Assembly (NCBI GenBank): GCA_945786985.1
Contig: CALZGC010000039.1
Location: 495-64,494, forward strand
DNA: 64,000 nucleotides
Source of the DNA: an uncultured Nitrospirota bacterium
Lineage (GTDB): Bacteria > CG2-30-53-67
Direction: 5' to 3'
A model generated the notes under the pieces. It made no database searches and was not told the origin of the DNA. It was given only the letters and a program-made list of their open reading frames with translations. The translations under genes were made by a program, and so were the position numbers. Positions 23,949-49,996 of the stretch are shown one piece after another (the stretch's first letter is position 1; the number at the start of each line of letters is the position of its first letter).

Positions 23949-23951
23949 CGG

Positions 23952-35169: not shown

Positions 35170-35266
35170 GCACCCGTAGAAATACCACAAAACACAGTGC
35201 GAACGCCCCCGCAGGCCGACCCATACCGCCTGCGGCGGGTTAGTCCTCATGGGAGGATACCCAGGC

Positions 35267-36349: not shown

Positions 36350-36391
36350 CCCGGAAATGTCGTCAACGAGCTTTTTGAGCCAGGGCTTTTC

Positions 36392-38434
36392 GTGAAGAGA
36401 AAGACAATAAGACGGATGAAACGTCAAATGGCCGAAGGGCTCCTCGCATGCGTGATGTTCGCATTTTGCGTTCTATCCGCCTATGGTTCCGCCGGTGCCC
36501 AGGAAACGAGTCCCTTCCGCATTACCGGAACCCGAGGGTTTGTCGGCTTCGGATGGGAGCGCGAGGATGAGACACGGCAGGAAAGCCGCGGTCTTGGTGA
36601 CGAAATTGAGGATGTGGACAGCGAGATCTTTGAAGAGATCGGTCTCGGTGTCGACGGATTTGTCTACCATCCGCTGCTCTTAGACTTCCGGGCCGATGTG
36701 GATGCGGTCTTCAAACAGGTCGACTTCAGCACAAACACCAGAGCCATTCCGGACCAGGATGAGAATTATCTCAACTACGACATCTTTGCGAGAATCCTCA
36801 AAGAGCACCGGCTCTCTTTCTGGCTGAGCTCCAACCAGCAGCGCCAGGATATCAACACACCCTTCTTTGACACAAGCCGTATTACCACCACGCAGCACAG
36901 CGCCGGCTTCACCTACCTGCATCCGGTCATTCCGGTCTGGTCCGGCTACTCCCATGAGACCTCCGATGGCGAAGGGAGCGTACAACGGGATGAACAGCGG
37001 GACAAACTCTATGTCGAGGCCAAGAATGAGGGTCCGCTGGGCGACAGCCTGCTCCGGTATGAAAAGGAGGAGCGCGCCGACGATTTCAGCGATGTCGATT
37101 TGAAGATCGACGCCCTGGACTTCACCAACATCTTCCCCTTCGGCGTCGACGACCGCCATGCGCTTCGCAGCCAGTTGCGCTACCAGGACCAGCGGGGCAC
37201 GAGCCCCATTGAAACCACTTTCATCGATGAAAGTCTGGACTTTCGCCACAGCCAGCGGTTGCGAACTTATGCAGGCTTTTCCTATTACGATTCGGATTTC
37301 GATGTTCAGACCACCAACCAGACACGCTACCGCGCCGGCTTGGAGCATCATCTCTACGACAGCCTGGTCACCACCCTGGAAGGGCGCGTCGAGAATTACG
37401 AAATCGATGAAGGCTTCAACGACAGCTACGCAGGAGATCTCGGCCTCAATTACCGGAAAAGGCTGCCCCTCGGTTCGCTGGATCTGCGGTACCGCGGCGT
37501 CATCCGGCGGGAGGACGAAGACTTCTCCGGTAATGTGACCAGCGTTTTCCTCGAGAGTCACACCTTCGGTGAGCTCATTTTCGACGAGATCGTTCTAAAC
37601 CGGGATTTCGCGGTGTCGGACTCCATAGAGCTCGTCGACGCGAGCGGCGTCCCCCTCGTCGATCCCGGCCTCAACCCCGTCACCGAGGGAATCCACTATC
37701 AGATTATAGTCGTGGGAAAGGTGACGCGAATCAGGCTCATTCCGCCGGCGGGCAGCTTTCTTTCCGGTGCGGATGTCTTCGTCAATTACGATTCCGTACC
37801 ACAACCGCCCATCGAGTTTACCTCCTATGAGCAGTTCTACGGGGCCACACTCAATCTCAAAGATATCTGGAGGGTCTACTACGCGGGCGCACGAATCAAC
37901 CAGGTATTGCGAGACGGTGTTGATTTCGGCAACCGGCTGGATGACATCCGGGACCGTACCTATGGCCTTGAAGCCAACTACGGCTTTTCAAGTAGCAAAG
38001 CGGAGAGAAAAGAGCACCACTCCAAAAGGAATCCCTTTGAGACGGACTTCCTTTCCCAGGAGTTTCAAATCCACCTGTGGAACAACGCGGACCTCTTCTT
38101 GACCGGTATTTACTCGGACACGGTCACCTTCGAAGACGTCGATCGCACGATCGATCGCGTTGCCTCGGCGCGGCTCGCCGTCTTTCTTTCGAAGCTTCGG
38201 TGGGCTCAATGGGATATTGAAACGACGTATGCGAACCGCGATCTCATTAATGAAGACCAGGAGAGCGTGAAGCTTCGCACCGAATTTTTCTGGCGGTACA
38301 AACGGATCGATTTCACCGTCACTTACGAGTATTGGAACCTTGACCGGGAAGTATTCGGAGACGAAGACAGCCACTACTTCTTTGTCCGTTTGAGAAGATT
38401 TTTCGGAACACAAGACCGGAGGGCACGGCGATGA
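36392..38434 (+). CDS. large outer-membrane beta-barrel protein (candidate porin of a porin–cytochrome conduit)
   Basis: Signal peptide (LLACVMFAFCVLSAYGSAGAQE). 680 aa of alternating aromatic/polar beta-strand patterns, rich in Y/F/W/D/R, with an aromatic C-terminal region (FTVTYEYWNL...HYFFVRLRRFF). Similar in size to MtrB-class 26-strand barrels. Stop overlaps the next gene's start (ATGA). Confidence 0.55.
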   Translation: MKRKTIRRMKRQMAEGLLACVMFAFCVLSAYGSAGAQETSPFRITGTRGFVGFGWEREDETRQESRGLGDEIEDVDSEIFEEIGLGVDGFVYHPLLLDFRADVDAVFKQVDFSTNTRAIPDQDENYLNYDIFARILKEHRLSFWLSSNQQRQDINTPFFDTSRITTTQHSAGFTYLHPVIPVWSGYSHETSDGEGSVQRDEQRDKLYVEAKNEGPLGDSLLRYEKEERADDFSDVDLKIDALDFTNIFPFGVDDRHALRSQLRYQDQRGTSPIETTFIDESLDFRHSQRLRTYAGFSYYDSDFDVQTTNQTRYRAGLEHHLYDSLVTTLEGRVENYEIDEGFNDSYAGDLGLNYRKRLPLGSLDLRYRGVIRREDEDFSGNVTSVFLESHTFGELIFDEIVLNRDFAVSDSIELVDASGVPLVDPGLNPVTEGIHYQIIVVGKVTRIRLIPPAGSFLSGADVFVNYDSVPQPPIEFTSYEQFYGATLNLKDIWRVYYAGARINQVLRDGVDFGNRLDDIRDRTYGLEANYGFSSSKAERKEHHSKRNPFETDFLSQEFQIHLWNNADLFLTGIYSDTVTFEDVDRTIDRVASARLAVFLSKLRWAQWDIETTYANRDLINEDQESVKLRTEFFWRYKRIDFTVTYEYWNLDREVFGDEDSHYFFVRLRRFFGTQDRRARR

Positions 38435-39618
38435 CGGCAGAGGACCAGATCACGACGCATAGAGTTCCAAGCGGAAACCGGATCGGATTGACGGTGCTGC
38501 TCACGCTTTCCCTGACTGCCTGCGCCGGCCAGGTGCAGATGCCAACCGAACCGACTCCGCCGGCACCGTTGACTCGCGTGTGGCCGGCACCGCCGGAGCG
38601 GCCCCGAATCACGCTGGTCCGGGAGATTCAGCTTCCGAGAGATATCCGGCAAAAACCGAGCGCCTGGCGGAAGATCGTGGAGTTCATCGCCGGGAAGGAA
38701 CCGCAGCCGACCTTGGTCCGCCCATACGGCGTCACTGTAGATCCTGGCGAACGCCTTCTGGTCGCCGACACCGGAGCCCAGCGTGTCCATATCTTTGATC
38801 TGAATTCAGGACTGTACGAGAAGCTTCCTCACCCCAAGGACGATCTGCGCCTCCTCTCACCCATTGATGTACAGGTGGACGGTTCCGGCCGCATCTATGT
38901 TTCCGACTCGGAGGCCCGCAAAGTCCACATCTTCAATGCCGAGGGGAGGCTGGAGAAAAGCCTGGCAGGTTTTGAACGTCCCACCGGACTGGCCGTCAAC
39001 AAAAGCCTGGGGCAGCTCTTGGTGGTCGACACCAAAGCGCAACAGATTCATGTTTTCAGCACCGCCGGCGAGCGCCTCTTCTCCTTCGGACGCCGCGGGG
39101 GAGGCAACGGAGAGTTCAATTTCCCGACGAACATCTGTCTCGATCGCCGGGGAAACATCTATATAACCGATTCGATGAATTTTCGTGTACAGGTCTTCGA
39201 TCCGAAAGGAAACTTCTTGAGTCGTTTCGGCAAGGCCGGCGACGGACCCGGACGGTTCTCAAAACCGCGAGGCATAGCCGTCGACAGCGACGGGCACATA
39301 TACGTCTCCGACGCGTCCTTCGACAACATCCAGATCTTCAACATCCAGGGGCAGATCCTGCTCTATTTCGGAGCCCCCGGCGTCTCGCCGGGAGAGTTCT
39401 ATATGCCCGCGGGAATCACCATCGATGCAAGCAACCGGATCTTCGTCGCGGACTCCTACAACCACCGAATCCAGGTCTTTCAGTATCTCAAGCCAGACCT
39501 GGAATCGGAAAAGAGCAGCTCCGGATCGAAAAGATCGTCCGAAGATCAGACAGCGCCGTCTCTCAGGTCCAATACACAACTTGACGTTTCCGCTCGAACG
39601 GGTTGGATCGGGCGGTAG
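38431..39618 (+). CDS. NHL-repeat beta-propeller lipoprotein
   Basis: Lipobox LSLTAC. Six NHL blades (LLVADTG, IYVSDSE, LLVVDTK, IYITDSMNFRVQVF, IYVSDASFDNIQIF, IFVADSYNHRIQVF). Confidence 0.88.
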   Translation: MTAEDQITTHRVPSGNRIGLTVLLTLSLTACAGQVQMPTEPTPPAPLTRVWPAPPERPRITLVREIQLPRDIRQKPSAWRKIVEFIAGKEPQPTLVRPYGVTVDPGERLLVADTGAQRVHIFDLNSGLYEKLPHPKDDLRLLSPIDVQVDGSGRIYVSDSEARKVHIFNAEGRLEKSLAGFERPTGLAVNKSLGQLLVVDTKAQQIHVFSTAGERLFSFGRRGGGNGEFNFPTNICLDRRGNIYITDSMNFRVQVFDPKGNFLSRFGKAGDGPGRFSKPRGIAVDSDGHIYVSDASFDNIQIFNIQGQILLYFGAPGVSPGEFYMPAGITIDASNRIFVADSYNHRIQVFQYLKPDLESEKSSSGSKRSSEDQTAPSLRSNTQLDVSARTGWIGR

Positions 39619-39656
39619 GGACGGACGACTCCCTTTTGCACAGTGGAGGAATCAAC

Positions 39657-41402
39657 ATGAAAAGGCTCACAGAAAGAAAGAGCGGAGGCAATCCCTTCAA
39701 TAGACGCTTCCTTTGCGTCGCGGCCCTTGTGCTGCTTGCCTTTGCCAGCAGCGCCGCGGCCCTCATGAGCGTCGTGGACTCCAAACACAATCTCTCCATC
39801 AGCGGTCCCGGCACCATGAAAGCCACGGCGGAATCGGAGATCTGCATTTTCTGCCATACCCCTCACGGCGCGGAGCCGGGGGGTGTTCTCTGGAACCGTG
39901 CGGACCCCGCAGGCCCCTACCAGACTTACGACAGTACCACCATACAGACCTTTGTCGGCCAGCCGACGAAAGCCTCCCGGAAGTGCCTGAGTTGTCATGA
40001 CGGCACCATCGCGCTCGGGCAGGTCTCCAGCCGGCCCGCACAAATACCGATGAGCCAGCAGTTTCTCAACACCGGTCCCGCATTCCTGGACACCGATCTG
40101 AGGGACGATCATCCCATTTCACTCAACTACGGCAGTGCCCCGACGCCCGAGTACAAGAATCCGGCCACCCTGACAGGCCCCGTGAAGCTCGACAAAGACG
40201 ATGATCTGCAGTGTACGGCGTGCCACGATCCGCACGATGATACGTTGGGCGATTTTCTGACCGACACCACCTTCCAATCCGCTCTCTGCCTGAACTGCCA
40301 CCAGCCGACGGGCTGGACCACTGGCACGCACCGAAACTCCGCGGCTGGCTGGAACGGCAGCCCTCCGGACCCATGGCCCCATACAGACTACACGTCGGTG
40401 GCGGAGAACGCCTGCGAAAACTGCCATCGCCCCCACAGTGCGGGACGGGATCCACACATTCTCAACGAATTCCTCGAAGAGGACAACTGCTACCCCTGCC
40501 ACAACGGCAACCTGGTGGGGGCCATCAATAATTTCGACATCCAGAGCGAATTCGTCAAACCCTCGAATCATCCCATCGGCAGCACCGTGGGCACCCACGA
40601 GCCGACCGAGGACTATCTGACCATGGCGCGCCACGTGGAATGCGCCGACTGTCACAACCCCCATCAGGCCAATGACACCCCGGCCAACGCCCCCCTGGTC
40701 AGCGGCGCGTTGCTGGGTGTCAAGGGGGTCGATGCCGCAGGCGGCGTAGTCGACCCGTCGATCAACGAATACGAGATCTGCTTCAACTGCCACGCCGACA
40801 GCGCCCCGGGGCCGATCCCTATACCGCGCCAGATTCCCGAAGTGAACAAGCGACAACAGTTTGCCCTGAGCAATCCGTCCTATCACCCCGTGGAGGGGCC
40901 CGGCAAGAATGCCAACGTCCCGAGCCTCGCCGGCATGACACTCAACGGCGTACCTCTCACCACCGGCACCGTGATCTACTGCACCGACTGCCACAACAAC
41001 AACAACGGCCCCGGCGCCGGCGGCGGCGGCCCCAATGGCCCCCACGGCTCGACCTATGACTACCTGCTGGAAAGGCGCAATGAGACGGCCGACTTCACCC
41101 CCGAGAGTTCCACGAACTACGCCCTCTGCTACAAGTGCCATAACCGGAACAGTATCCTGAACGACGACAGTTTCGATGAGCACGACAAGCACATCCGTGG
41201 CGAAGATGCTCCCTGTTCGGTCTGTCACGACCCCCACGGCGTCGACGGCACCGCCTCGAACAATACGCATTTGATCAACTTCGACACCTCTGTCGTCTTC
41301 CCCAGCGGTGGACAGCTATGGTTTCGAGACGACGGAGTTTTTGGGGGAACATGCCGCCTCGTCTGCCATGGCGAGGATCACAATCCGTTCAACTACCCAT
41401 AA
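39657..41402 (+). CDS. multihaem c-type cytochrome (11 CxxCH plus a C-terminal CxxxCH)
   Basis: Signal peptide. SKHNLS motif. CIFCH, CLSCH, CTACH, CLNCH, CENCH, CYPCH, CADCH, CFNCH, CTDCH, CYKCH, CSVCH, CRLVCH. Confidence 0.9.
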   Translation: MKRLTERKSGGNPFNRRFLCVAALVLLAFASSAAALMSVVDSKHNLSISGPGTMKATAESEICIFCHTPHGAEPGGVLWNRADPAGPYQTYDSTTIQTFVGQPTKASRKCLSCHDGTIALGQVSSRPAQIPMSQQFLNTGPAFLDTDLRDDHPISLNYGSAPTPEYKNPATLTGPVKLDKDDDLQCTACHDPHDDTLGDFLTDTTFQSALCLNCHQPTGWTTGTHRNSAAGWNGSPPDPWPHTDYTSVAENACENCHRPHSAGRDPHILNEFLEEDNCYPCHNGNLVGAINNFDIQSEFVKPSNHPIGSTVGTHEPTEDYLTMARHVECADCHNPHQANDTPANAPLVSGALLGVKGVDAAGGVVDPSINEYEICFNCHADSAPGPIPIPRQIPEVNKRQQFALSNPSYHPVEGPGKNANVPSLAGMTLNGVPLTTGTVIYCTDCHNNNNGPGAGGGGPNGPHGSTYDYLLERRNETADFTPESSTNYALCYKCHNRNSILNDDSFDEHDKHIRGEDAPCSVCHDPHGVDGTASNNTHLINFDTSVVFPSGGQLWFRDDGVFGGTCRLVCHGEDHNPFNYP

Positions 41403-41415
41403 GCGAGGTTCGGCT

Positions 41416-42387
41416 TTGAAAAACCTTTTTCTATTGCTCTTTTTCGGACTGATCGTTGCGTCGGGCGCCGGTGCATCCGATCTCTCCGCCAAGGCTGTGA
41501 TGGCCACGGTCAACGGCGTTGCCATCACACGCAGCCTGGTCGAGGCCGAGGTGCGCCGCCTGGTCCCGAGGACCCTTTTTCACCAGAGCATCGATGCCGA
41601 GAAACTCGCCGCCTTTCGCAAGGACGCGCTCGAGAGCCTGATTGACAAGGAACTCCGGGTCCAGGAGGCAGCGCGTCTCGGACTCACGGTCGACAAGCGT
41701 GCCGTTGGGACGGAACTCAAGAAGGTGATCGAACGCTATTCGAACAAGAGGGAATTCGAAAAGCGACTCAAAGCGGCGGGCTATTCCACCCGGGATGCCA
41801 AAGAGGAAATTGAAAGACGGCTGCTGGCCGATCTCGTTTTTCAACGGGAAGTCGTCGCGCGCGTCAAGGTCAGCGACCAGGAGGCCCGAAGCTATTATGA
41901 AGCCAATCAGGAGAAGTTCGTGGAGCCTCGCCGCTTCAACCTGAGCCACATCCTGGTGAAAGTGCCTCCCCTGGCGAACGATTTCGAAGAAAAAGCGCTG
42001 GAGAAGAAGACCAAGGAGATCGCCAGACAAATCCGGGCAGGACTCACCTTTGACGAGGCCGTGCGCAAGTACGCGGAAGGAGACGACCAGGACGACGGCG
42101 GTGACATGGGCTGGGTTCACGAGGGGCGGCTCGTGCCGGAAATCGAGCAGGAAATCGCCAAATTGACGCCCGGTGAGATTGCCGGCCCCTTCCGAACCTT
42201 TCGGGGCTTCAGGATCTTCCGCGTGGACGAAGTCCGCACCGAGAGACAGGTCCCCTTCCCTGAGATCCGGGACAAGCTCCTGGCCGACCTCACCGAGAAA
42301 GCCATTCAGGAAAGAGAAACCGTCTGGAAGGCAGGACTAAGAGAGAAGGCTGAAATCGTTCGCCACGAACTTCCGGCCGGAAACTAG
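41416..42387 (+). CDS. SurA/PrsA-like peptidyl-prolyl cis-trans isomerase (SurA N-domain plus one PpiC/parvulin domain)
   Basis: TTG start 7 nt after a GAGGT RBS, giving signal peptide LKNLFLLLFFGLIVASGAGA. Parvulin motif FNLSHILVKV...GGDMGWV. Confidence 0.8.
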   Translation: MKNLFLLLFFGLIVASGAGASDLSAKAVMATVNGVAITRSLVEAEVRRLVPRTLFHQSIDAEKLAAFRKDALESLIDKELRVQEAARLGLTVDKRAVGTELKKVIERYSNKREFEKRLKAAGYSTRDAKEEIERRLLADLVFQREVVARVKVSDQEARSYYEANQEKFVEPRRFNLSHILVKVPPLANDFEEKALEKKTKEIARQIRAGLTFDEAVRKYAEGDDQDDGGDMGWVHEGRLVPEIEQEIAKLTPGEIAGPFRTFRGFRIFRVDEVRTERQVPFPEIRDKLLADLTEKAIQERETVWKAGLREKAEIVRHELPAGN

Positions 42388-42438: not shown

Positions 42439-42477
42439 CTCGTAATAGATTGACTCATGCAATAGACGGGCTAGTAC
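42439..42477. repeat. MITE-like element, copy C (solo terminal inverted repeat, opposite orientation)
   Basis: CGTAATAGATTGACTCATGCAATAGACGGGCTAGTAC is the reverse-complement of the ATTGCATGAGTNAATCTATTACG terminus (22/23) and matches the flanking CCCGG-CTAG motif of copy B's 3' end. Confidence 0.5.
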
Positions 42478-43001
42478 TTGTCTGTATGGCAGGCAATGCA
42501 AAGCTCCGTGGAGGAGTGCCCCACGGTCAGTTCCCTCGAGGCGGTGCACTCTGCAGCGGGATCCAGCGCCATGGCCGCCGTCTGCATCCCGGTCGACAGA
42601 TCACTCTTAAGTCTGTGACAGGAAACGCAGCTCACCTTCCCATCAACCAGACGGATATTCTTGTCCAGCAGCAGCCTCGGCCGATACCCCCTTGGGTCCC
42701 GCATGGCATAGTGATCATAGGACATGCCCACCGGATGATTGACCGTCCGGGATCCGCTTATCTGGAAAGGGGCGTCGGCATCTTTCAATGAGATACTTGT
42801 TGCTGTGGCCCCATTGTGGCATCCCAGGCAGTCACTCGCCGTACTGTCAGGAGGTACTGCAGCCGCACTGACGGCGAAGGCTTGCACATCGGCACCGAAC
42901 ACGAAGTTCCTGAACATCTCAGAGAGGCTTCCCGCCACCGCTGTGCGCGGTGCAACACAAATCAGAGAAAAGACCATCAGGAGTGTACAAAACCTCTGCA
43001 T
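42471..43001 (-). CDS. trihaem c-type cytochrome
   Basis: Signal peptide MQRFCTLLMVFSLICVAPRTAVAG. CLGCH, CVSCH, CIACH. Confidence 0.8.
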   Translation of the reverse strand: MQRFCTLLMVFSLICVAPRTAVAGSLSEMFRNFVFGADVQAFAVSAAAVPPDSTASDCLGCHNGATATSISLKDADAPFQISGSRTVNHPVGMSYDHYAMRDPRGYRPRLLLDKNIRLVDGKVSCVSCHRLKSDLSTGMQTAAMALDPAAECTASRELTVGHSSTELCIACHTDKY

Positions 43002-43490
43002 AGCCAACCCTCCTCCTGTCATGCCCGAGGGGCAATTACCACACGGTATCGGTTCTAAAAGAATGGATTGAAAAAGAGGATGGGCCGCCGACGTCAGAGA
43101 GCCTGCCTGAAGACCCATACGTTCATCCGTCTCTTCGGCAGCCCCTCTACCATCACCTTGCGGCCCCAGGCAGGTGGCTTTGCGTCCGATCCCTTTCGGG
43201 AAAGGTTGCCTTTGTCACAAAACTAATCAGTACATCGGGAGAAAGGCAAAATACTTTAGAATAAACTGGTTCCCCCGATGGGTCTGGCCGGCTTGCGAAC
43301 GTATTCGGTGGCAAACCTGACCTCTCCACGAAGCCTTTCTAATGTTCTTACCACTGAATCCTTTGGCCCGCAACCGATGGGCGGACAAGATCTGCACCAT
43401 GGCGTCCGGCATGGCCGCCGACCTTTTCGCACGGGCCAGTGTGGGAAAAACATTGTGTTTCTATCATAACCTAAGAACTTGTTTATGCGG

Positions 43491-43552: not shown

Positions 43553-45688
43553 TCAGGGTTGCGGTAACCATGAATTGTCATGCACGTGACAGTCGGTGCA
43601 ATCTTGACCATCAAAGTGGGCGGGCGCGTCCCCATTGTATCGATGGAAAAGGGTCTGGGTATGGCAGGTCTCACAGATATTCTCATTGAAGGGCGGCCCA
43701 TCGGCAAAAGAGCCCTCTCCTTCCCGACTCGTGAAAACAATCAGACTGCCGTCGATGACACTCTGGTCCGTGGTCTCTCGCACCGCCTTAATGTTGTCCC
43801 CGACCTCGAACATAGGGTTGTGACAATCGACACACCCAACCTCGTAGTTGTATTTCCCGGTGCCACTGACAGCGCTGGTGTGGGGCTTTCGTGTCCCGTG
43901 GCACTTCATGCACTCTTCACTCGGGATCTTGGCAGAAAAAATGAGATTGTCACTTACATCCTCCACGTGACAGAACCCGCAGTTGCTATTGAAAAAGTTT
44001 GTGTTGTGCGGCGGCTGTGCCTGTCCCGCCGTAGGCAGAAATCCATCACGATGGAGGTGACACTGGGTGCACTGCTGGCCATCGAAGTGCGACTGACCGC
44101 CCGGTGCGGTGCCGTCGCTCTGATGATGATTGGTCCGGGTGTGGCAGGTCTCGCAGATGTTCTCCTCATGGGGCGGACCGTCCGCAAAGGAGCCTATCCC
44201 CGTGGGGGCCGTAAACTGCACAAAGTTCTGTATGGACGCGCCCGTGGCCTCGTTGTCAAAACAGATCGTCCGCCGGACATACTGCCCATAGGTGGTTCCA
44301 AACTTATTGTTCTGCTCCTGGGTGTGCGGATTGTGGCAGGTCACACAGTCGGCGCCCCAGTTCCCGTATTTGCTCCCCACGACGTCGGTCCCGTGGGTCC
44401 GAACGTTGGGGGCCGAGCCGAATCCGAACGGATAGGACTCGGGATACTGGACCTTGAATATCCCGTTGAGTGGATCCGAGGTATCTTCCGGGTCCGCGTG
44501 GCACCGCTGGCACTGATACCGCAAATCGTTGAAGAAATCATTTAGATCGTGGCATTTCCCGCAGAAGAGTTCAGTGTTGTCGGGGTGCACAGAGCCATCC
44601 GGGTTGAGCAGCAGCCCGAAATGGGGCGTATCCCGGGGCGTGGTCACGGTCTCGCAGCTCGGCCCACCGCAGTCGTCAACATCCGTCTCGTCAGCCAAGT
44701 TGTCACAGTCGTTGTCGATCCCGTCGTCACAGACCTCCAGAAAGCCGGGGCTGCGGTTGGGGTCGGCGTCGTCACAGTCTGGTGCGCACTTGGCCGCCCC
44801 GTCGCCATCGGCGTCGACATCCGTTGAGAAGTCGGCCCGACCGTCACAGTTGCTGTCCTTGCCGTCACAGATTTTTGGGGCACCGGGAAAGACCTGGGGG
44901 TCCGTGTCATCACAGTCGACGGGACCGCAGACACCGCCCAACGTGGAAAAACCGTCCCCGTCGGTGTCGGCCCCGGCGCAGGCCTCGCAATCGGGGTCGG
45001 AGATACAGGTTGCGTCATCACAGTCGATCGACCCGTCGCAGTTATTGTCGATACCGTCCGTACAGAACTCCGCGGCCGCTGGATTCACAGCAGCATTGGT
45101 ATCGTCACAGTCGGTACCGCCGCAGAAAGAAGCCGTATCACCGTCGCCGTCGGCGTCGGGGCAGATACATCCGGCTTCGTCCGTTGTGCCATCACAGTTG
45201 TTATCCTTGCCGTCGCCGCAGAGCTCGCTGGCCCCCGGATTCACCGTGGCACTGAAGTCATCGCAATCACCCGGCGTGTCGCAAATCTTAAATCCGTCTC
45301 CGTCGCTATCGCGCTCCTCCGCGGGCATGCCGGACGTACAATCGTTGTCCTTGCCGTCACAGATTTCGGAATTCCCGGGAAAGCGGGCCGGATCGCTGTC
45401 ATCGCAGTCGCCCGCGCACCGCGGCACACCGTCGCCGTCAGCGTCGACGTCGGTGCCGAAAGTCCGACCGTCGCAATTGGTGTCTCTCCCGTCGCAGATC
45501 TCGGGCACCCCTGGTCGAATATCGGGATCCGTATCGTCACAGTCGGGGCCCACACAGTCAATACCGCTCCCGTATCCGTCCCCGTCATTGTCCACGCATT
45601 GGGCCTGAACGTTGGAGCTGCCCAGGATCAACAGAACTCCCAGCAAGACAGATAAGAACATCCCCATCGGGCACTTCTTGGAAATCAT
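43553..45688 (-). CDS. secreted 10-haem c-type cytochrome with N-terminal Myxococcus-type putative metal-binding motif repeats (Asp/Cys-rich, Ca-binding-like)
   Basis: Signal peptide. More than five DADGDG...DCDD...PG..E.CDG.DN.CDG repeats. Then CGKCH, CQRCH, CVTCH, CETCH, CTQCH, CGFCH, CMKCH, CVDCH, CETCH, CTDCH. Confidence 0.88.
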   Translation of the reverse strand: MISKKCPMGMFLSVLLGVLLILGSSNVQAQCVDNDGDGYGSGIDCVGPDCDDTDPDIRPGVPEICDGRDTNCDGRTFGTDVDADGDGVPRCAGDCDDSDPARFPGNSEICDGKDNDCTSGMPAEERDSDGDGFKICDTPGDCDDFSATVNPGASELCGDGKDNNCDGTTDEAGCICPDADGDGDTASFCGGTDCDDTNAAVNPAAAEFCTDGIDNNCDGSIDCDDATCISDPDCEACAGADTDGDGFSTLGGVCGPVDCDDTDPQVFPGAPKICDGKDSNCDGRADFSTDVDADGDGAAKCAPDCDDADPNRSPGFLEVCDDGIDNDCDNLADETDVDDCGGPSCETVTTPRDTPHFGLLLNPDGSVHPDNTELFCGKCHDLNDFFNDLRYQCQRCHADPEDTSDPLNGIFKVQYPESYPFGFGSAPNVRTHGTDVVGSKYGNWGADCVTCHNPHTQEQNNKFGTTYGQYVRRTICFDNEATGASIQNFVQFTAPTGIGSFADGPPHEENICETCHTRTNHHQSDGTAPGGQSHFDGQQCTQCHLHRDGFLPTAGQAQPPHNTNFFNSNCGFCHVEDVSDNLIFSAKIPSEECMKCHGTRKPHTSAVSGTGKYNYEVGCVDCHNPMFEVGDNIKAVRETTDQSVIDGSLIVFTSREGEGSFADGPPFNENICETCHTQTLFHRYNGDAPAHFDGQDCTDCHVHDNSWLPQP

Positions 45689-45757
45689 GGCTCGGCCTCC
45701 ATTCCAAACGGCGGGTGATCATTTTGTAGATCAAATGGCTCCCTTAGGAAGGTATTG

Positions 45758-45786
45758 AATATAACACAGAATGAAAGTTTTTTCAA
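45758..45786 (-). promoter_or_regulatory. candidate sigma-70 promoter with extended −10 for the 43553..45688 cytochrome
   Basis: Minus strand TTGAAA-N17-TGTTATATT, ~65 nt upstream of the start codon. Confidence 0.4.
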
Positions 45787-45915
45787 AAGATTCTGAAGAA
45801 ATCTCGCCAAGGAAATGCGAAAATTAAGACGTTTCGTTAGGCGTTCAGACGCTCAGAGGAAATAAGAGCGAAAAGTCAAACTTACAGAAGACAAAAATGG
45901 CAGCAGGATGGAGGC

Positions 45916-46103
45916 CCTTAACCCGGAGATTGCATGAGTAAATCTATTACGAGGCTGGATAGTCTGCCACATGCGGCGTTACAGAAGATCTTCTGACTTC
46001 AATATGTTTACAGCCAGAAGATCTTTTGCGCCCTGCCTGTAGCGCATCCAAAACCTCTGGGGCCTCTCATGACGATCAACTCATGCAATATCCGGGCTAA
46101 GTG
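45916..46103. repeat. MITE-like element, copy B (full length ~188 bp, ~27-bp terminal inverted repeats)
   Basis: 5' CCTTAACCCGGAGATTGCATGAGTAAATCTATTACGAGGC ... 3' CAACTCATGCAATATCCGGGCTAAGTG. The termini are reverse-complements of each other. Confidence 0.6.
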
Positions 46104-46202
46104 CCCAAACAATAAACCGCGCTACTCTGTGATCGAAGCGTTGTGCACCGACAGAGGAGGATCAACCAAATCGAAACCACTGACTGTCACCAATTCATGA
46201 TG

Positions 46203-46233
46203 CAAAATCCCGGGCCACAAGGCGTGGCCCGGG
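46203..46233 (-). terminator. candidate Rho-independent terminator
   Basis: Minus-strand perfect 10-bp stem CCCGGGCCAC-GCCUU-GUGGCCCGGG followed by AUUUUG. Confidence 0.45.
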
Positions 46234-46263
46234 ATCTTCAGTATAACCGCTGCGCTTCAAGTT

Positions 46264-46524
46264 TTAAAACGAGCTTGCTCCATGTCCGTGGCAGTTTCCG
46301 GCCATACAACCGGTACTTTTGTTACCTCCCATTTGATCGGGATGGCAGGTTGAGCAGAAAGACCGGCCGTTTGTCGTTGCGTCACTGTTACTCTGTGAGA
46401 CATCAAGGACCCTGACGAGATCGGGGTCTTCACCTGGAATCGACCAATCCGGCGTGAGCGGCGTCGATCCGTTTTTGGAGTAGATAATCGGCTTCAAATT
46501 GGCCAGGTTTGTGTAAACCATACC
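46264..46524 (-). CDS. small Cys/His-rich ORF (86 aa) with strong RBS; possibly the C-terminal remnant of a cytochrome gene
   Basis: GGAGGTG-N6-ATG. MVYTNLANLKPIIY...SFCSTCHPDQMGGNKSTGCMAGNCHGHGASSF. No signal peptide. The C-terminal G.C...CHG resembles the C-termini of the 14- and 12-haem cytochromes. Confidence 0.3.
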   Translation of the reverse strand, partial: GMVYTNLANLKPIIYSKNGSTPLTPDWSIPGEDPDLVRVLDVSQSNSDATTNGRSFCSTCHPDQMGGNKSTGCMAGNCHGHGASSF

Positions 46525-46562
46525 ATTCACCTCCGCCCGTGTCCGGCATTGTGGCAGTCGCT

Positions 46563-47122
46563 TCACGCAAGGACATCACCCTGTTGGTATCCGCTCCCGG
46601 GCTGCAGACTGACCTGCCGACTCGCATCAGCTGGACCGTGCTGGTCGCCTTTGCCGTCGGTCCAAGCCGTGCAGATATCTGTGAGCGCCTGCGTTGGCGG
46701 CGTGACACTTGCCGGGTATGAGTTGTCATGACAATCGAGGCAGAACTCCGTCATGCTCGCCGGCACCCGACCGTCGTCCGGGTCGGGATCGGCCAAAAAG
46801 ATCCACCGCATGCGGACTGTGGCAATCGGTACACTCGATCTTCGCTCCGCTGCAGACCATATCCGCATAAGAGACATCGTGATGGGTATTCCGATCCGCT
46901 CCGGAGCGGGATACCATGGTTTCTGTGCCGGCAAAGAGGAACTGAATGTCCTGAGCCGGCGCGCCATCATGGCACCCAAAAGAGAGCTCTTCTTCTCCGT
47001 TGGCAACGGGTGCACCCGCCACCGTCCCCGAGAGGAAGGGCGGGTGCTATCGGTTCCGCCGTGACAGTACGGGCAGTTCCCTTCCAGGGCTTCCAACCGA
47101 CGGTGGTGCTCGGTCAGTGCCT
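46563..47122 (-). pseudogene. 5'-truncated, frameshifted remnant of a tetrahaem (31710-type) cytochrome paralogue
   Basis: Haem-motif segments in the same order as the 4-haem protein are split over two frames: NCPYCHGG (frame A), LSFGCHDG with the first Cys lost and ECTDCHSPHA (frame B), EFCLDCHD (frame A). There is no signal peptide and no room for one before the upstream gene's stop at 47123. Confidence 0.45.
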
Positions 47123-49891
47123 CTACTGCTCGTGGCACGTGGTGCAGTCGCGGAAGTCCTCGAGAATGTACGCCCCCAGGTCAGGATCCCACACGAAACT
47201 GTGGCAGTTCAGGCAGTCGTAGGTGGCATCCGGCACTCCGTCGCCGTTCGCATCAGGTTTCGGCACGATACTGTCCGGTATGATTGGCGTTCCCACGCGC
47301 TGGTGGTGCAGGTTGGGTATCGACGCACTGGTGAGGAGAAAGCCCTCCGAATGAGGATGACAGGTTGTACAAGTATTGCCGTCTAAGTGACTCTGCCCAC
47401 CGGGCGCCGTCCCATCTGACTGATGGTGGTTCGTGGCGCTGTGGCAGGTTTCACAGACATTCTCCTCGTGAGGCGGTCCGTCCGCAAAGGACCCCGGCCC
47501 GGAACGTGCCGTGAAGTCAATAACGCTGCCCGGAATGACGCTTCCCGGAACCGTCGATCTGACCAGTTTCAAGTTCGTCTGTTCAAACATCGGGTTATGG
47601 CAGTCGACACACTGGTTGGTATAGCTATAAGTGCCCGACCCGTTCACATCGCTGTGCGTCAGGACATTCGGCGCCGCCGGGAAGCCGTCTTTGAGGACGC
47701 CCGTTGGCGCATGACACTGCTCGCACTTGGAATCGGGAATGGGAGAACTGAAATCTGAAGTGCTGACGTGACAGTAATCACAGTTGTTCAGAAACTCCTG
47801 CGTGTCGTGCGGGGCCGCCGGTGTACCTCCTGTCGGTGCGAACCCATCGGCATGGGAATGACAGGCGGTGCAGGCAAGTCCGTTATTGTGATCCTGCCCA
47901 CCCGGTGCCGTCCCATCGCTCTGTTGGTGGTTGGTACGGGTATGGCAGGTATTGCAAATGTTCTCATCGTAAGGCGCGCCATCGGCAAAGGAGCCCGGCC
48001 CTGTGGGCGCGGTGAACTCCACAAAATTCTCCACCGACCCGCCCGTCGTCTGATTATCGAAACAGATGGTCCGTTTGATCAGCTTGCCGTAGGTGGTGCC
48101 GAACTTGTTGTTCTGCTCCTGGGTATGGGGGTTATGGCAGTTCACGCAGTCCGCCCCCCAGGTGCCATATTTGTTCCCGAGGATCCCCGATGAGTGGGTC
48201 ACGACATTCGCAGCCGAGCCGAACCCGAACGGATAAGCATCGGGGTACTGGGCTTTGAGGACACCGTTGAGCGGATCGGAGGTATCGTTCGGATCGGCGT
48301 GACACCGCTGGCACTGATAGCGGGTGTCATCGAGAAAATTGGTCAGATTGTGGCACTTGCCGCAGAACAGCGCATTGTTGTCCGGATGAATCGTGCCGTC
48401 CGGATTGAGAAGCTGACCCAGATGGGGCTCATCCCTCGGCGTGGTCACTGTACCACAGGTCGGAGGACCGCAGTCTTCTAAATCCGCCGCATCGGTCAGG
48501 TTGTCGCAATCGTTGTCGATCCCGTCGGTGCAGACTTCCAGATTGTCAGGATAGCGCTTCGGATTATTGTCATCACAGTCGGAGGCGCAGCGGGCCACCC
48601 CGTCGCCGTCTGCATCGACATCGGAGGAGAAATCGAGCCGGCTGTCACAATTGTTGTCTTTACCATCGCAGATGCGAAGCGCACCGGGGTAGACAGTCGG
48701 ATCGGTGTCGTCACAATCTCCGGCAGCCACGGCCACTCCGTCACCATCATTGTCACCTGCGACCGCGACGCAACTACTGTCCGCTGCATCGGTCATGCCG
48801 TCAAAGTCATTGTTGCAACCGTCACTGCAGGTCGGACTCCCCACCGGCCCTTCCAGCCCGATGAGGGAAGCGCCCACACAGTCACCGTTGGAGCAGGTGT
48901 CGCCGCTCGTACACGGGTCGCTGTCGTCGCACGCGCCGATGGCAAAGGTACAGTCGTTGTTGCAGCAAAGACCGCCGTCGCACTGCTCATCGGCCTCCAC
49001 GATGCCGTTGCCGCAAACGCCGACCGCATCACACCTGTCCGTAGCTTCGTTACAAGTCGTGCCGCCGGTACAGGGGTCGCCGGCAGAAACACAGGCGCCC
49101 GAGCCGTTGCAGCTCTCCGTGCCGTCACAGAAAACTCCGTTGGAACTGCAGGCCGTAGCGGTGCTCGAAAAAGTGCAGTCCGGATCGCAGCACTCGCCGC
49201 CATCACACTGCTCGCCGGTCTCCACGGTCCCGTTGCCACAAACGGCGCCCGTATCGCAGGTATCGGTCGATTCGATACAGTTCGTCCCGCCCGGACAGGG
49301 GTTGCCGGCGGAAACACAGCCGCCCGAGCCGTTGCAGCTCTCCGCGCCGTCACAGAAAAGACCGTTGTCCGTGCAGGCCATGCTGGGCATGGCAAAGGTA
49401 CAGTTGCTATTACAGCAAACGCCCCCATCACACTGCTCGCCACTCTCGACAATCCCGTTTCCGCACACCGGACCGCCGCCACCGACGCAGCCCCCCAGAT
49501 CCGCTGTGTCGACCCGGCGGTCGCAATCGTTGTCTTGGCCGTCGTCGCAGATCTCCTGATTGCCGGGAAAGTTTGACGCGTCGTTGTCATCGCAGTCCCC
49601 CCCACATCGCGGCACGCCGTCGCCGTCGGCATCCACATCGGTGCGGAAATCAAGGCGACCGTCGCAGTTAGTGTCGAGGCCGTCGCAGATACGGATCGCA
49701 CCCGGAAAGACGTTGGCGTTTGTGTCGTCGCAATCGACACCCGGGTTGGGACAGTCCGCTGCTCCGGCAACCCCGTAATCGTCGCCGTCAGCATCCACGC
49801 AGGCCGTCGCCGTGGGACTCGCCAGCGCAACGACCAGAAAACTAAAGAAAAAAACCGATAGGAAGGTTTTTAACGACCGTGTCTCTCTCAT
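47123..49891 (-). CDS. secreted 12-haem c-type cytochrome with putative metal-binding motif repeats and three Myxococcus cysteine-rich repeats (CGNGxVExGEQCDGG)
   Basis: Start MRETRSL after a GGAGGGG RBS; signal peptide. DADGDG/DCDD repeats at both ends of the N-region. Three ~75-aa CGNG...EQCDGG repeats. Twelve CxxCH. About 75% identical to the 43553 paralogue across the haem region. Confidence 0.88.
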   Translation of the reverse strand: MRETRSLKTFLSVFFFSFLVVALASPTATACVDADGDDYGVAGAADCPNPGVDCDDTNANVFPGAIRICDGLDTNCDGRLDFRTDVDADGDGVPRCGGDCDDNDASNFPGNQEICDDGQDNDCDRRVDTADLGGCVGGGGPVCGNGIVESGEQCDGGVCCNSNCTFAMPSMACTDNGLFCDGAESCNGSGGCVSAGNPCPGGTNCIESTDTCDTGAVCGNGTVETGEQCDGGECCDPDCTFSSTATACSSNGVFCDGTESCNGSGACVSAGDPCTGGTTCNEATDRCDAVGVCGNGIVEADEQCDGGLCCNNDCTFAIGACDDSDPCTSGDTCSNGDCVGASLIGLEGPVGSPTCSDGCNNDFDGMTDAADSSCVAVAGDNDGDGVAVAAGDCDDTDPTVYPGALRICDGKDNNCDSRLDFSSDVDADGDGVARCASDCDDNNPKRYPDNLEVCTDGIDNDCDNLTDAADLEDCGPPTCGTVTTPRDEPHLGQLLNPDGTIHPDNNALFCGKCHNLTNFLDDTRYQCQRCHADPNDTSDPLNGVLKAQYPDAYPFGFGSAANVVTHSSGILGNKYGTWGADCVNCHNPHTQEQNNKFGTTYGKLIKRTICFDNQTTGGSVENFVEFTAPTGPGSFADGAPYDENICNTCHTRTNHQQSDGTAPGGQDHNNGLACTACHSHADGFAPTGGTPAAPHDTQEFLNNCDYCHVSTSDFSSPIPDSKCEQCHAPTGVLKDGFPAAPNVLTHSDVNGSGTYSYTNQCVDCHNPMFEQTNLKLVRSTVPGSVIPGSVIDFTARSGPGSFADGPPHEENVCETCHSATNHHQSDGTAPGGQSHLDGNTCTTCHPHSEGFLLTSASIPNLHHQRVGTPIIPDSIVPKPDANGDGVPDATYDCLNCHSFVWDPDLGAYILEDFRDCTTCHEQ
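48860..49466 (-). repeat. tandem ~225-bp coding repeats (Myxococcus cysteine-rich repeat units) inside the giant cytochrome gene
   Basis: Near-identical DNA at ~49060–49150 and ~49290–49380 (…GCCGTTGCAGCTCTCCG(T/C)GCCGTCACAGAAAA…). The antisense ORF 48705..49559 displays the periodicity. Confidence 0.7.
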
Positions 49892-49980
49892 GGCCCCTCC
49901 AGAGATTAAGATGATGTGATGAATGCCTCGTATCCTCATATTTTCGAGCCGTTTCAGAAGCCAAACAAGCCAAAAAATAC

Positions 49981-49996
49981 GCAATATGCATGCCAC
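49981..49996 (-). promoter_or_regulatory. sigma-54 (−24/−12) promoter for the 12-haem giant cytochrome
   Basis: Minus strand TGGCATGCATATTGC (TGGCA-N6-TTGC, canonical spacing), ~75 nt upstream of the start at 49891. Confidence 0.55.

What the first reader, a model, noticed from the sequence alone, without database searches (positions are those of the whole stretch)
43553..49891. Two giant paralogous cytochromes fused to Myxococcus-type Cys-rich repeats and Asp/Cys metal-binding repeats
The 711- and 923-aa secreted proteins combine 10 and 12 CxxCH haem sites with TIGR02232-like CGNGxVExGEQCDGG repeats and PF11617-like DADGDG...DCDD...CDG.DNDC repeats. Their haem regions are ~75% identical, indicating recent paralogy.

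The Asp-rich repeats look Ca2+-binding (thrombospondin-type-3-like). This suggests an extracellular, possibly mineral- or matrix-anchored cytochrome. The larger one sits behind a sigma-54 promoter.
Basis: partly seen in the sequence, partly recalled or inferred. Interest (0 to 1): 0.7.

Follow-up and report, generated by a model that had tools for sequence, protein, structure and literature searches.

The report
Calcium-repeat-tethered multihaem cytochromes, Nitrospirota
Two secreted 10- and 12-haem cytochromes from an uncultured groundwater Nitrospirota bacterium carry Asp/Cys-rich "MopE-type" repeats at their N-termini and sit beside an outer-membrane electron-transfer gene cluster, so they are most likely cell-surface electron-transfer proteins of a clade-specific, uncharacterised family.

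Summary
Gene A (43553-45688, minus strand) encodes 711 aa with 10 CxxCH. Gene B (47123-49891, minus strand) encodes 922 aa with 12 CxxCH. Both have Sec signal peptides and strong PF11617 repeats: 198 bits with 6 copies in A, 95 bits with 4 copies in B.

Four corrections:
- The CGNGxVExGEQCDGG repeats occur only in B (3 copies of 75 aa). They fail the profile thresholds (DUF4215 14 bits against 27; no NCBIfam hit; Disintegrin 32.8 against 35.1). They are still clearly homologous to DUF4215-positive proteins (E 1e-60).
- Haem-region identity is 65% (73% in the first module, 55% in the second), not 75%.
- A and B are not sisters in a tree, so the paralogy is old.
- B is 922 aa, not 923.

The sigma-54 promoter claim holds. 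There is a good -24/-12 match 89 nt upstream of B. rpoN and an NtrC-type activator lie in the window. The element recurs upstream of 8 of 24 homologues.

MopE-repeat/pentahaem-module fusions (10-52 haems) are almost confined to Nitrospirota/Thermodesulfovibrionia MAGs. They sit next to a conserved cluster of multihaem cytochromes, NHL propellers, a putative porin and a PpiC isomerase. Best reading: surface-exposed terminal cytochromes on a calcium-stiffened, disulfide-rich stalk. Location and calcium binding are inferred, not shown.

The parts
43553..45688 (-). Gene A: 711-aa secreted MopE-repeat decahaem cytochrome (public protein P0009)
   Evidence: ORF and 10 CxxCH. PF11617 198 bits and Cytochrome_C7 52 bits. 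Identical protein on the NCBI contig CAMYNS010000010.1.
45602..45688 (-). A signal peptide (residues 1-29, ...SSNVQA|QC)
   Evidence: Hydrophobic segment at residues 4-32 and an AxA-like site. In homologues the first Cys lies +1 to +3 from the predicted site, so it belongs to the repeat and is not a lipobox Cys.
44702..45592 (-). A: six MopE-type repeats (residues 33-73, 80-118, 127-166, 178-218, 241-282, 290-329)
   Evidence: Pfam reports 6 stretches. Repeat alignment gives DxDxDG-x5-10-C-x-DCDD-x5-PG-x3-E-x-C-DG-x-DNDCD.
43556..44656 (-). A haem domain (residues 345-711): two tandem pentahaem modules
45758..45786 (-). Sigma-70-like promoter for A (TTGAAA-17-TATATT, extended TG)
   Evidence: Consensus scan, 10 of 12 matches, about 70 nt upstream of the ATG. 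GGAGG ribosome-binding site before the ATG. Prediction only.
46264..47138 (-). Decayed cytochrome gene between B and A (CPYCH, CTDCH, CLDCH and CSTCH spread over three frames)
   Evidence: Three-frame translation. blastx matches residues about 346-607 of a roughly 610-630-aa 15-haem family (P0207, P0183) in two frames. A related sequence follows the B-type gene in L011. No gene is called here in the public record.
47123..49891 (-). Gene B: 922-aa secreted MopE-repeat / CGNG-repeat dodecahaem cytochrome (public protein P0001)
   Evidence: ORF and 12 CxxCH. PF11617 95 bits, Cytochrome_C7 57 bits, Cytochrom_c3_2 42.5 bits. 100% match to P0001.
49802..49891 (-). B signal peptide (residues 1-30, ...SPTATA|CVDADG)
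   Evidence: Hydrophobic segment at residues 5-32 and an AxA site. Prediction by inspection only.
49520..49795 (-). B: MopE-type repeats 1-2 (residues 33-77, 85-124)
   Evidence: AF2 pLDDT 80-94 for these repeats.
48797..49465 (-). B: three 75-aa, 12-Cys CGNGxVExGEQCDGG repeats (residues 143-217, 218-292, 293-~365). This is a DUF4215/disintegrin-like cassette inserted into the MopE array.
   Evidence: Motif positions. 225-nt tandem array. DUF4215 14.2 bits and Disintegrin 32.8 bits, both below cutoff. 694 relatives in the representative library, best E 2.7e-92, and 6 of 10 tested carry PF13948 above or near cutoff. AF2 model is poor here, pLDDT below 50.
48503..48754 (-). B: MopE-type repeats 3-4 (residues 380-416, 424-463)
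   Evidence: Residues 380-419 align to MopE* 2vov residues 6-45, E 0.011. AF2 pLDDT 82-94.
47126..48454 (-). B haem domain (residues 480-922): two pentahaem modules plus a C-terminal dihaem extension containing a DANGDG motif
   Evidence: The extension is shared with P0146 and P0148.
49980..49995 (-). Sigma-54-type -24/-12 element TGGCATgcataTTGCG, 89 nt upstream of the B ATG
   Evidence: The same kind of element lies within 400 nt upstream of 8 of 24 homologous genes against 0.74 expected, P about 4e-7.
29996..42387 (+). Adjacent conserved cluster: 14-haem cyt (29996-31348), 4-haem cyt (31710-32378), NHL+Cds6_C protein (32611-35169), 5-haem cyt+Cds6_C (35249-36349), 680-aa secreted protein without Pfam match that is a putative OM beta-barrel (36392-38434), NHL lipoprotein (38431-39618), 11-haem cyt (39603-41402), SurA/PpiC isomerase (41308-42387)
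   Evidence: Pfam and NCBIfam. Haem counts and signal peptides. The same gene order lies next to MopE-cytochromes in L002/L004, L003/L005, L009, L010 and L012.
42471..43118 (-). Small 3-haem cytochrome immediately downstream of A
   Evidence: Conserved downstream of the A orthologue in L002 and L006.
27868..29238 (+). Sigma-54-dependent response regulator (NtrC/AtoC type) with histidine kinases upstream (22437-23948, 26005-27780)
   Evidence: NCBIfam AtoC 475 bits, NtrC 437 bits.
11054..12490 (-). rpoN (sigma-54) in an lptA-lptB-rpoN-...-hprK neighbourhood
   Evidence: Pfam Sigma54_CBD, Sigma54_DBD and Sigma54_AID.

Best explanation
A and B are exported terminal multihaem c-type cytochromes. 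They belong to an outer-membrane extracellular-electron-transfer system of an uncultured Nitrospirota (Thermodesulfovibrionia-type, genus-level bin CG2-30-53-67) groundwater bacterium.

Proposed mechanism:
- After Sec export and SPase-I cleavage, the C-terminal domain matures into a chain of 10 (A) or 12 (B) bis-His-type haems. The chain is built from two tandem pentahaem modules and relays electrons.
- The N-terminal array of 6 (A) or 4 (B) MopE-type repeats forms a disulfide-locked, probably Ca2+-loaded, non-catalytic stalk or attachment module. Each repeat has two DxDxDG-like acidic loops and two to three disulfides.
- This array occupies the position held by a lipobox plus Ser/Gly linker in MopE-less homologues. 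It would therefore position or tether the haem wire at the cell surface, matrix or mineral.
- B additionally carries a three-copy DUF4215/disintegrin-like Cys-rich cassette, which probably adds reach or a binding surface.
- The neighbouring conserved cluster would supply the trans-outer-membrane route and folding help. It holds periplasmic and lipoprotein multihaem cytochromes, two NHL propellers, a putative beta-barrel and a PpiC isomerase.
- B is transcribed from a sigma-54 promoter under an enhancer-binding protein. A has its own sigma-70-like promoter.

Shown: sequence architecture, family membership of the repeats, synteny, taxonomic restriction and promoter motif recurrence.
Inferred: haem ligation, Ca2+ binding, extracellular location, direction of electron flow, and physical coupling to the neighbouring cluster.
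For: - Haem motifs and cytochrome profiles above cutoff.
- PF11617 at 198 and 95 bits. AF2 models the MopE repeats confidently, pLDDT 80-94.
- Each repeat carries DxDxDG and DxDNDCDG loops and aligns to the N-terminus of MopE*. MopE* and CorA contain a structural Ca2+ (PMC3912023).
- In other proteins PF11617 co-occurs with extracellular modules: FG-GAP, PKD, PPC, LTD, C-type lectin, MYXO-CTERM.
- MopE-less homologues P0146, P0148, P0151 and L008 start with canonical lipoboxes followed by Ser/Gly linkers.
- The family has 10, 15, 20, 25 and up to 52 CxxCH, which indicates modular wires.
- The cluster of cytochromes, NHL propellers, unk680 and PpiC lies next to MopE-cytochromes in at least 5 independent MAG lineages.
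- That gene mix matches the composition of the Tenderia uet cluster: MHCs, PPIase UetB, beta-barrel UetC, NHL UetH/I (bioRxiv 10.1101/2022.05.06.490989; PMC10734462).
- Thermodesulfovibrionia at DeMMO are reported to carry D. ferrophilus-type multihaem cytochrome (DFE) genes (PMC8478452). L019 comes from a DeMMO3 MAG.
- unk680 has a signal peptide, no TM helix, and amphipathic strand-like sequence ending ...RLRRFF.
- Sigma-54 element, rpoN, enhancer-binding protein, and enrichment upstream of homologues.
Against: - No localisation predictor or experiment was available. Signal peptides only show export from the cytoplasm, so a periplasmic location is not excluded.
- There is no C-terminal sorting signal and no T2SS gene was seen in the window.
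- The Pfam TSP_3 model does not match, and Ca2+ binding by the PF11617 motif itself was not verified in the MopE structure here.
- A and B are on the opposite strand from the main cluster and have their own promoters. Co-function rests on conserved adjacency only.
- In the sibling MAG the gene upstream of the A orthologue is a radical-SAM gene, and no B orthologue was found.
- The beta-barrel nature of unk680 is untested: no Pfam, NCBIfam or PDB hit.
Confidence: 0.55

Rival explanations
1. Periplasmic electron carriers or capacitors. A and B stay in the periplasm. The haem chain stores or shuttles electrons between inner-membrane quinol oxidoreductases and the outer-membrane conduit. The Asp/Cys repeats are a periplasmic Ca2+-stabilised spacer.
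Against: PF11617 repeats co-occur overwhelmingly with extracellular modules. MopE itself is surface-associated or secreted (PMC3423442, PMC3912023). Lipoprotein versions with Ser/Gly linkers resemble surface cytochromes. A stalk of 300-450 residues and family members of up to 52 haems seem too long for a periplasm.
Confidence: 0.2
2. Adhesive or contact-dependent redox proteins. The Cys-rich MopE and disintegrin-like modules bind a specific partner such as a mineral surface, exopolysaccharide or another cell. The cytochrome then works in direct interspecies or mineral contact electron transfer, and B's CGNG cassette provides the specificity.
For: The cassette is related to Disintegrin at 32.8 bits and to DUF4215 proteins that carry cohesin, VWA and PPC modules. 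The cassette is found in only one protein of the family, consistent with strain-specific ligand adaptation. NHL proteins in comparable clusters have been linked to adhesion or stabilisation of outer-membrane cytochromes (bioRxiv 10.1101/2022.05.06.490989).
Against: No ligand-binding motif was identified. The cassette model is unreliable, pLDDT below 50. This is largely a refinement of the main explanation rather than an exclusive rival.
Confidence: 0.15
3. Metal-handling proteins. The 'Cu-binding_MopE' repeats chelate Cu or other metals as substrate. The haems reduce or oxidise the bound metal, giving detoxification, metal acquisition or dissimilatory reduction of soluble metals.
For: The Pfam name and the MopE precedent for copper binding (PMC3423442). 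Very high Asp/Cys content.
Against: Only residues 6-45 of MopE* align. By my recollection of the MopE* structure (not checked here), the Cu ligands (two His and a kynurenine) lie outside that segment. PF11617 is described as matching only a small region of MopE/CorA and lacking specificity (PMC6189053). The number of non-haem Cys is even, 56 in B, consistent with disulfides rather than free thiols. The repeat consensus contains no conserved His.
Confidence: 0.07
4. Polymerising cytochrome nanowire subunits of the OmcS, OmcE or OmcZ kind.
For: NHL, PpiC and cytochrome genes also surround nanowire genes in Geobacter (from memory, not tested here). Modular haem chains.
Against: No sequence or fold similarity to any solved cytochrome filament. 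Large non-haem N-terminal domains would hinder tight stacking. The family lengthens by adding modules within one polypeptide, not by polymerisation.
Confidence: 0.03

Closest known systems
Extracellular or outer-membrane multihaem cytochromes of porin-cytochrome systems: MtrC/OmcA and MtrCAB, Geobacter OmcB-type Pcc, Gallionellaceae PCC3 extracellular MHCs with 10-35 haems, Tenderia UetJ/UetA
   Same: Secreted multi-CxxCH proteins with a variable, modular haem count. They are encoded beside periplasmic MHCs, a putative beta-barrel, NHL propellers and a peptidyl-prolyl isomerase. That gene mix is as described for uet (bioRxiv 10.1101/2022.05.06.490989) and, for the extracellular and periplasmic MHC plus porin logic, for PCC3 (PMC10734462).
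   Different: No profile or structural match to MtrC/OmcA, DmsE/MtrA (TIGR03508 20.7 bits against 192) or any solved cytochrome. The N-terminus is a long Asp/Cys repeat array rather than a lipid anchor. The family is essentially confined to Nitrospirota.
MopE / CorA surface copper proteins of methanotrophs (PDB 2vov) and the PF11617 'putative metal-binding motif'
   Same: They share the roughly 40-residue motif DxDxDG...DC(D/N)D...PG..E...DG.D.NCDG. MopE and CorA are surface-associated or secreted and contain Ca2+ (PMC3912023).
   Different: MopE has one copy followed by a beta-sandwich Cu(I) site with kynurenine. A and B have 6 and 4 copies, none of the MopE core, and haem domains instead.
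Myxococcus cysteine-rich repeat (TIGR02232 / Pfam DUF4215) and ADAM-type disintegrin domains
   Same: CGNGxVExGExCD opening motif and dense disulfide pattern. Relatives found with phmmer (E down to 1e-92) include proteins with DUF4215 above cutoff. JGI names two relatives 'cysteine-rich repeat protein'.
   Different: B's copies lack the DDGNxxDGDGC insert of canonical DUF4215 (DGGxCC instead) and score below cutoff. Each 75-aa unit has a second six-Cys half. The cassette is embedded in a cytochrome.
Thrombospondin type-3 / DxDxDG calcium-binding repeats
   Same: Tandem Asp-rich loops with a DxDxDG signature interleaved with disulfides. A related family member (P0035) carries PF02412 together with PF11617.
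   Different: Pfam TSP_3 does not match A or B at E<=1. Ca2+ binding is untested.

Membership tests
Multihaem c-type cytochrome (class III / c7-like) | Multiple CxxCH haem-attachment motifs with enough additional His for axial ligation, and a profile match | tested here: met
   A has 10 and B has 12 CxxCH. Non-motif His number 14 and 16. PF14522 scores 52.2 and 57.2 bits against a cutoff of 24.8. PF14537 scores 42.5 bits in B.
PF11617 (Cu-binding_MopE / putative metal-binding motif) repeat proteins | Score above the Pfam gathering threshold of 27 bits | tested here: met
   198.1 bits (6 stretches) in A and 94.9 bits (4 stretches) in B.
MopE/CorA copper-binding proteins | Homology across the beta-sandwich core carrying the His/His/kynurenine Cu site | tested here: not met
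   Only B residues 380-419 align, to 2vov residues 6-45, at E 0.011. Nothing else aligns.
TIGR02232 / PF13948 (DUF4215) Myxococcus cysteine-rich repeat | Profile score above the curated cutoff | tested here: not met
   PF13948 scores 14.2 bits against 27 on the isolated cassette. There is no NCBIfam family at E<=10. I could not confirm that TIGR02232 is in that release.
TIGR02232 / PF13948 (DUF4215) superfamily | Significant homology to bona fide members (transitive) | tested here: met
   The cassette hits P0226 at E 1.2e-60, P0232 at 3e-46 and P0259 at 1e-19. These score 47.6, 53.4 and 643.7 bits on PF13948. P0218 is precomputed as PF13948.
Disintegrin (PF00200) | Score above the gathering threshold of 35.1 bits | tested here: inconclusive
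   32.8 bits, E 1.2e-7, 2 stretches on the isolated cassette. This is just below cutoff.
Thrombospondin type-3 repeat (PF02412) | Profile match; Ca2+ binding by DxDxDG loops | tested here: not met
   There is no PF02412 hit at E<=1. The DxDxDG motif is present, but Ca2+ binding cannot be tested with these tools.
MtrA/DmsE decahaem family (TIGR03508) | Score above 192.2 bits | tested here: not met
Cytochrome nanowire subunits (OmcS/OmcE/OmcZ) | Sequence or fold similarity to solved filament subunits | tested here: not met
Uet/DFE-like NHL-containing outer-membrane cytochrome clusters (genomic context) | Co-located MHCs, NHL beta-propellers, a peptidyl-prolyl isomerase and an outer-membrane beta-barrel | tested here: inconclusive
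   The MHCs, two NHL proteins and the PpiC/SurA-like isomerase are confirmed by Pfam. The 680-aa candidate barrel has no family or PDB hit and is inferred from sequence features only. Orthology to Uet or DFE proteins was not tested.
Sigma-54-dependent promoter | GG at -24 and GC at -12 with consensus TGGCAC-N5-TTGCW, sigma-54 present, and an enhancer-binding protein present | tested here: met
   TGGCATgcataTTGCG at 49995-49980. rpoN at 11054-12490. NtrC-type EBP at 27868-29238. The motif recurs upstream of 8 of 24 homologues, P about 4e-7. Transcription itself was not tested.

The most novel reading that the evidence does not exclude
MopE-type Ca2+/disulfide repeat arrays are a previously unrecognised way of mounting extracellular haem wires. 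They would be a lipid-anchor-free, calcium-rigidified stalk that Nitrospirota/Thermodesulfovibrionia use to hold 10- to 52-haem cytochromes away from the outer membrane or onto minerals. They would be exchangeable with lipoprotein anchors within one family. B would show that further adhesive Cys-rich cassettes can be spliced into the stalk.
Probability: 0.25. Interest if true: 0.65.

Novelty: new variant of a known kind. Interest (0 to 1): 0.45.

Why it matters
Thermodesulfovibrionia and related Nitrospirota are abundant in deep groundwater and are repeatedly implicated in iron and mineral redox cycling. The molecular parts of their extracellular electron transfer are uncharacterised.

This locus defines a clade-restricted family of modular pentahaem-repeat cytochromes with an unusual non-lipid N-terminal module. 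It ties the family to a conserved cluster of porin-like protein, NHL propellers and PpiC isomerase, and to sigma-54 control. That gives concrete candidates for expression, localisation and heterologous tests.

It also shows that the Pfam label 'Cu-binding_MopE' should not be read as copper binding in these proteins.

Tried and rejected
- Model of B's N-terminal region. The MopE repeats were confident, but the CGNG cassette had pLDDT below 50. Foldseek returned only non-significant matches to acyloxyacyl hydrolase at E about 5. No fold claim is made for the cassette.
- Lipoprotein anchoring of B (ATA|C) was considered and rejected. The -3 residue is not L/V/I, and in homologues the Cys shifts from +1 to +3 relative to the cleavage site.
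- Recent duplication was rejected.
- An intact gene between B and A was rejected. The reading frame is broken in at least two places and the N-terminal ~345 residues of the parent family are absent. An assembly error cannot be excluded without reads.
- The first genome scan with the 58-sequence alignment failed because it had no conserved stretch. It was repeated with a 10-sequence alignment.
- Literature searches for the MopE-cytochrome fusion found nothing relevant. Searches for OmcS-associated NHL/PPIase machinery found nothing in the held library.
- The window-wide count of sigma-54-like matches at 2 mismatches is not above chance. The promoter argument therefore rests on position, quality and recurrence in homologues, not on that count.
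Full report
**Source and genes**

The window is part of contig CAMYNS010000010.1 of MAG GCA_947259695.1. Its closest species-representative relative is 'uncultured Nitrospirae bacterium ES_M_CG2-30-53-67_01'. That relative has 94% aa identity for gene A and about 84% nt identity over the neighbouring cluster.

Two minus-strand ORFs occupy the flagged interval:
- A is 43553-45688 and encodes 711 aa.
- B is 47123-49891 and encodes 922 aa, that is 923 codons with the stop.

For B, a longer ORF from 50038 exists. The ATG at 49891 is preceded by GGAGG, yields a proper signal peptide, and is the public gene call.

**Check of the observation**

- A has exactly 10 CxxCH and B has 12. There are no CxxxCH or CxxxxCH variants.
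- PF11617 scores 198.1 bits (6 stretches) in A and 94.9 bits (4 stretches) in B, against a cutoff of 27. Cytochrome_C7 is above cutoff in both.
- The repeat consensus is DxDxDG-x5-10-C-x2-3-DC(D/N)D-x5-PG-x3-E-x-C-DG-x-DN(D/N)CD.
- The CGNGxVExGEQCDGG repeats are present only in B. There are three 75-aa units with 12 Cys each. At the DNA level they form a 225-nt tandem array of 2.3 copies with 76% matches. The cassette is inserted between MopE repeats 2 and 3.
- The cassette fails the profile thresholds. DUF4215 (the Pfam counterpart of TIGR02232) scores 14.2 bits against 27. No NCBIfam model matches at E<=10. Disintegrin scores 32.8 bits against 35.1.
- Homology to that superfamily is nevertheless clear. 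An exhaustive phmmer search found 694 relatives with a best E of 2.7e-92. Six of ten tested relatives carry PF13948: five above cutoff and P0258 at 24.8 bits. One reaches 644 bits.
- The difference from canonical copies is a deletion of the DDGNxxDGD segment, leaving DGGxCC.

**Paralogy**

- BLASTP gives 60% identity over 521 aa.
- Global alignment of the shared haem regions gives 65%. The first pentahaem module is 73% identical and the second 55%. DNA identity is 67-74%.
- A is more similar to proteins from other MAGs (P0145 at 69-70%, P0013 at 67%) than to B.
- B shares its C-terminal dihaem extension with P0146 and P0148.
- In an NJ tree of the decahaem core, A and B fall in different clades. 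The tandem pair in L003 (P0012 and P0129) are sisters in the same tree. That tree has no bootstrap support.
- In the sibling MAG the A orthologue has a radical-SAM gene upstream, and no B orthologue was detected.

The paralogy is therefore old, not recent.

**Family and distribution**

- A pattern scan of one genome per GTDB species found 35 loci. Thirty-two are labelled Nitrospirae, Nitrospirota, Nitrospiraceae, Thermodesulfovibrionia or Thermodesulfovibrio. Two are labelled 'bacterium'. One is a 3.7-kb contig binned as Gammaproteobacteria.
- Sources are mainly groundwater and deep-subsurface sites: CG2_30, SURF, DeMMO3 and NC_groundwater.
- Single MAGs carry up to eight copies.
- Haem counts are 10, 15, 20, 25 and up to 52. 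This fits serial addition of a pentahaem module, whose internal duplication is visible in A.
- Most members start with a signal peptide followed directly by MopE repeats.
- A minority (P0146, P0148, P0151, L008) lack the repeats. They start instead with a canonical lipobox and a Ser/Gly-rich linker.
- Stand-alone decahaem versions also exist, for example P0145.
- None of the 216 fetched homologues or 35 loci carries the CGNG cassette, apart from B itself (present in the fetched set as P0001).
- Among the 53 metagenome loci with cassette relatives, all at 61% identity or less (the closest, higher-scoring matches 45% or less), only one has several CxxCH.
- A few DUF4215 proteins in the representative library do carry haem motifs, for example P0264 with 9. 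The idea of such a fusion is therefore not unique, but B's architecture is.

**Genomic context**

Upstream on the plus strand lies a cluster spanning 29996-42387:
- a 14-haem cytochrome;
- a 4-haem cytochrome;
- an NHL+Cds6_C protein;
- a 5-haem cytochrome+Cds6_C;
- a 680-aa secreted protein with no family hit;
- an NHL lipoprotein;
- an 11-haem cytochrome;
- a SurA/PpiC isomerase.

The same order lies next to MopE-cytochromes in L002/L004, L003/L005 (there co-directional and contiguous), L009, L010 and L012.

The composition matches what has been described for the Tenderia uet cluster, which has MHCs, PPIase UetB, beta-barrel UetC and NHL UetH/I (bioRxiv 10.1101/2022.05.06.490989). It also matches the general porin-cytochrome logic of PCC3 (PMC10734462). 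DeMMO Thermodesulfovibrionia were reported to carry D. ferrophilus-type MHC genes (PMC8478452).

The 680-aa protein has a signal peptide, no TM helices, amphipathic strand-like sequence and a C-terminal ...RLRRFF. I infer an outer-membrane barrel but could not test it.

**Regulation**

- TGGCATgcataTTGCG lies at 49995-49980, 89 nt before B's ATG. It has the correct GG/GC spacing.
- rpoN is in the window at 11054-12490.
- An NtrC/AtoC-type enhancer-binding response regulator with histidine kinases sits at 22437-29238, just upstream of the cytochrome cluster.
- Comparable elements occur upstream of other cytochrome genes in the window, at 31520 (an exact consensus match), 29546 and 43152.
- They also occur within 400 nt upstream of 8 of 24 homologous genes, against 0.74 expected (P about 4e-7). 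The starts in those loci were chosen automatically as the first ATG.
- A has a separate sigma-70-like promoter at 45786-45758.

**Structure**

- AF2 on the A haem domain with a 58-sequence MSA and no haems gave pLDDT 75.6 and pTM 0.61.
- AF2 on B residues 31-480 modelled the MopE repeats at pLDDT 80-94 as helix-poor, disulfide-knotted units. It failed on the CGNG cassette.
- Foldseek on that model gave only non-significant hits to acyloxyacyl hydrolase.
- By sequence, the only PDB link is MopE* residues 6-45.
- MopE* and CorA are surface-associated or secreted proteins that hold one Cu and one structural Ca2+ (PMC3912023, PMC3423442).
- PF11617 covers only a small part of MopE and is not specific for copper proteins (PMC6189053).

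**Interpretation**

The best-supported reading is that A and B are exported terminal cytochromes of a clade-specific extracellular-electron-transfer system. The MopE array would act as a Ca2+/disulfide-stabilised stalk or attachment module in place of a lipid anchor.

Rival readings are a periplasmic location, direct metal binding by the repeats, and filament formation. They are less well supported but not excluded. Their evidence is set out in the rival-explanations section of this report.

The direction of electron flow (mineral reduction or oxidation) cannot be inferred from sequence.

**Novelty**

The exact proteins are in public databases without names. Relatives are auto-annotated as 'MopE-related protein', 'putative metal-binding motif-containing protein' or 'cytochrome c3 family protein'. 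I found no paper in the held library describing the fusion.

I rate this a new variant of a known kind, namely extracellular multihaem cytochromes. It is of moderate interest, mainly as a well-defined target family for subsurface Nitrospirota.

Noticed in passing
window 46264-47138 (- strand): Remnant of a third cytochrome gene between B and A. Haem motifs are scattered over three reading frames. It matches only the C-terminal ~260 residues of a 610-630-aa 15-haem family (P0207, P0183). A related sequence follows the B-type gene in L011. It is either a pseudogene or an assembly error.
   Followed up: partly
window 31520-31535 (+), 29546-29561 (+), 43152-43138 (-): Further sigma-54-type -24/-12 elements lie upstream of other cytochrome genes. 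They include an exact TGGCACagctcTTGCT 190 nt before the 4-haem gene at 31710. The whole cytochrome neighbourhood may be one sigma-54 regulon controlled by the EBP and kinases at 22437-29238.
   Followed up: partly
window 15217-15257 (+), 46099-46059 (-), 42473-42433 (-): A ~35-40-nt conserved motif TAGCCCG(G/T)(A/C)TATTGCATGAGT...ATC...A(C/T)GAG occurs three times, and two copies share an identical 16-mer. At 42473 its TAG is the stop codon of the 3-haem cytochrome gene. Its function is unknown; it could be a terminator, a small RNA or a repeat element.
   Followed up: no
window 36392-38434 (+): A 680-aa secreted protein has no Pfam, NCBIfam or PDB match. It is conserved (21-86% identity) at the same position in every related cluster. 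It is probably the outer-membrane beta-barrel of the system.
   Followed up: partly
window 32611-35169 (+) and 35249-36349 (+): Cds6_C NTF2-like domains (PF24125) are fused to an NHL propeller (three copies, 207 bits) and to a 5-haem cytochrome. This is an unusual pairing and it is conserved in the sibling MAG.
   Followed up: no
L017, L018, L019, L023, L033 (Thermodesulfovibrionia / Nitrospiraceae MAGs): Giant members of the same family carry 28-52 CxxCH motifs in single ORFs of 1,660-2,515 aa. Most have N-terminal MopE repeats.
   Followed up: partly
L003 7206-12193 (JGI 3300028399, = L005): A tandem pair of MopE-cytochromes (925 aa with 15 haems, and 730 aa with 10 haems) lies directly downstream of and co-directional with the cytochrome/NHL cluster. 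The two are sisters in the tree. This is an independent, more recent duplication than the A/B split.
   Followed up: partly
window 11054-14101 (-) and 8497-9447 (-): A classical lptA-lptB-rpoN neighbourhood with HPr kinase. It confirms a diderm envelope with LPS transport and a sigma-54 regulon in this organism.
   Followed up: no
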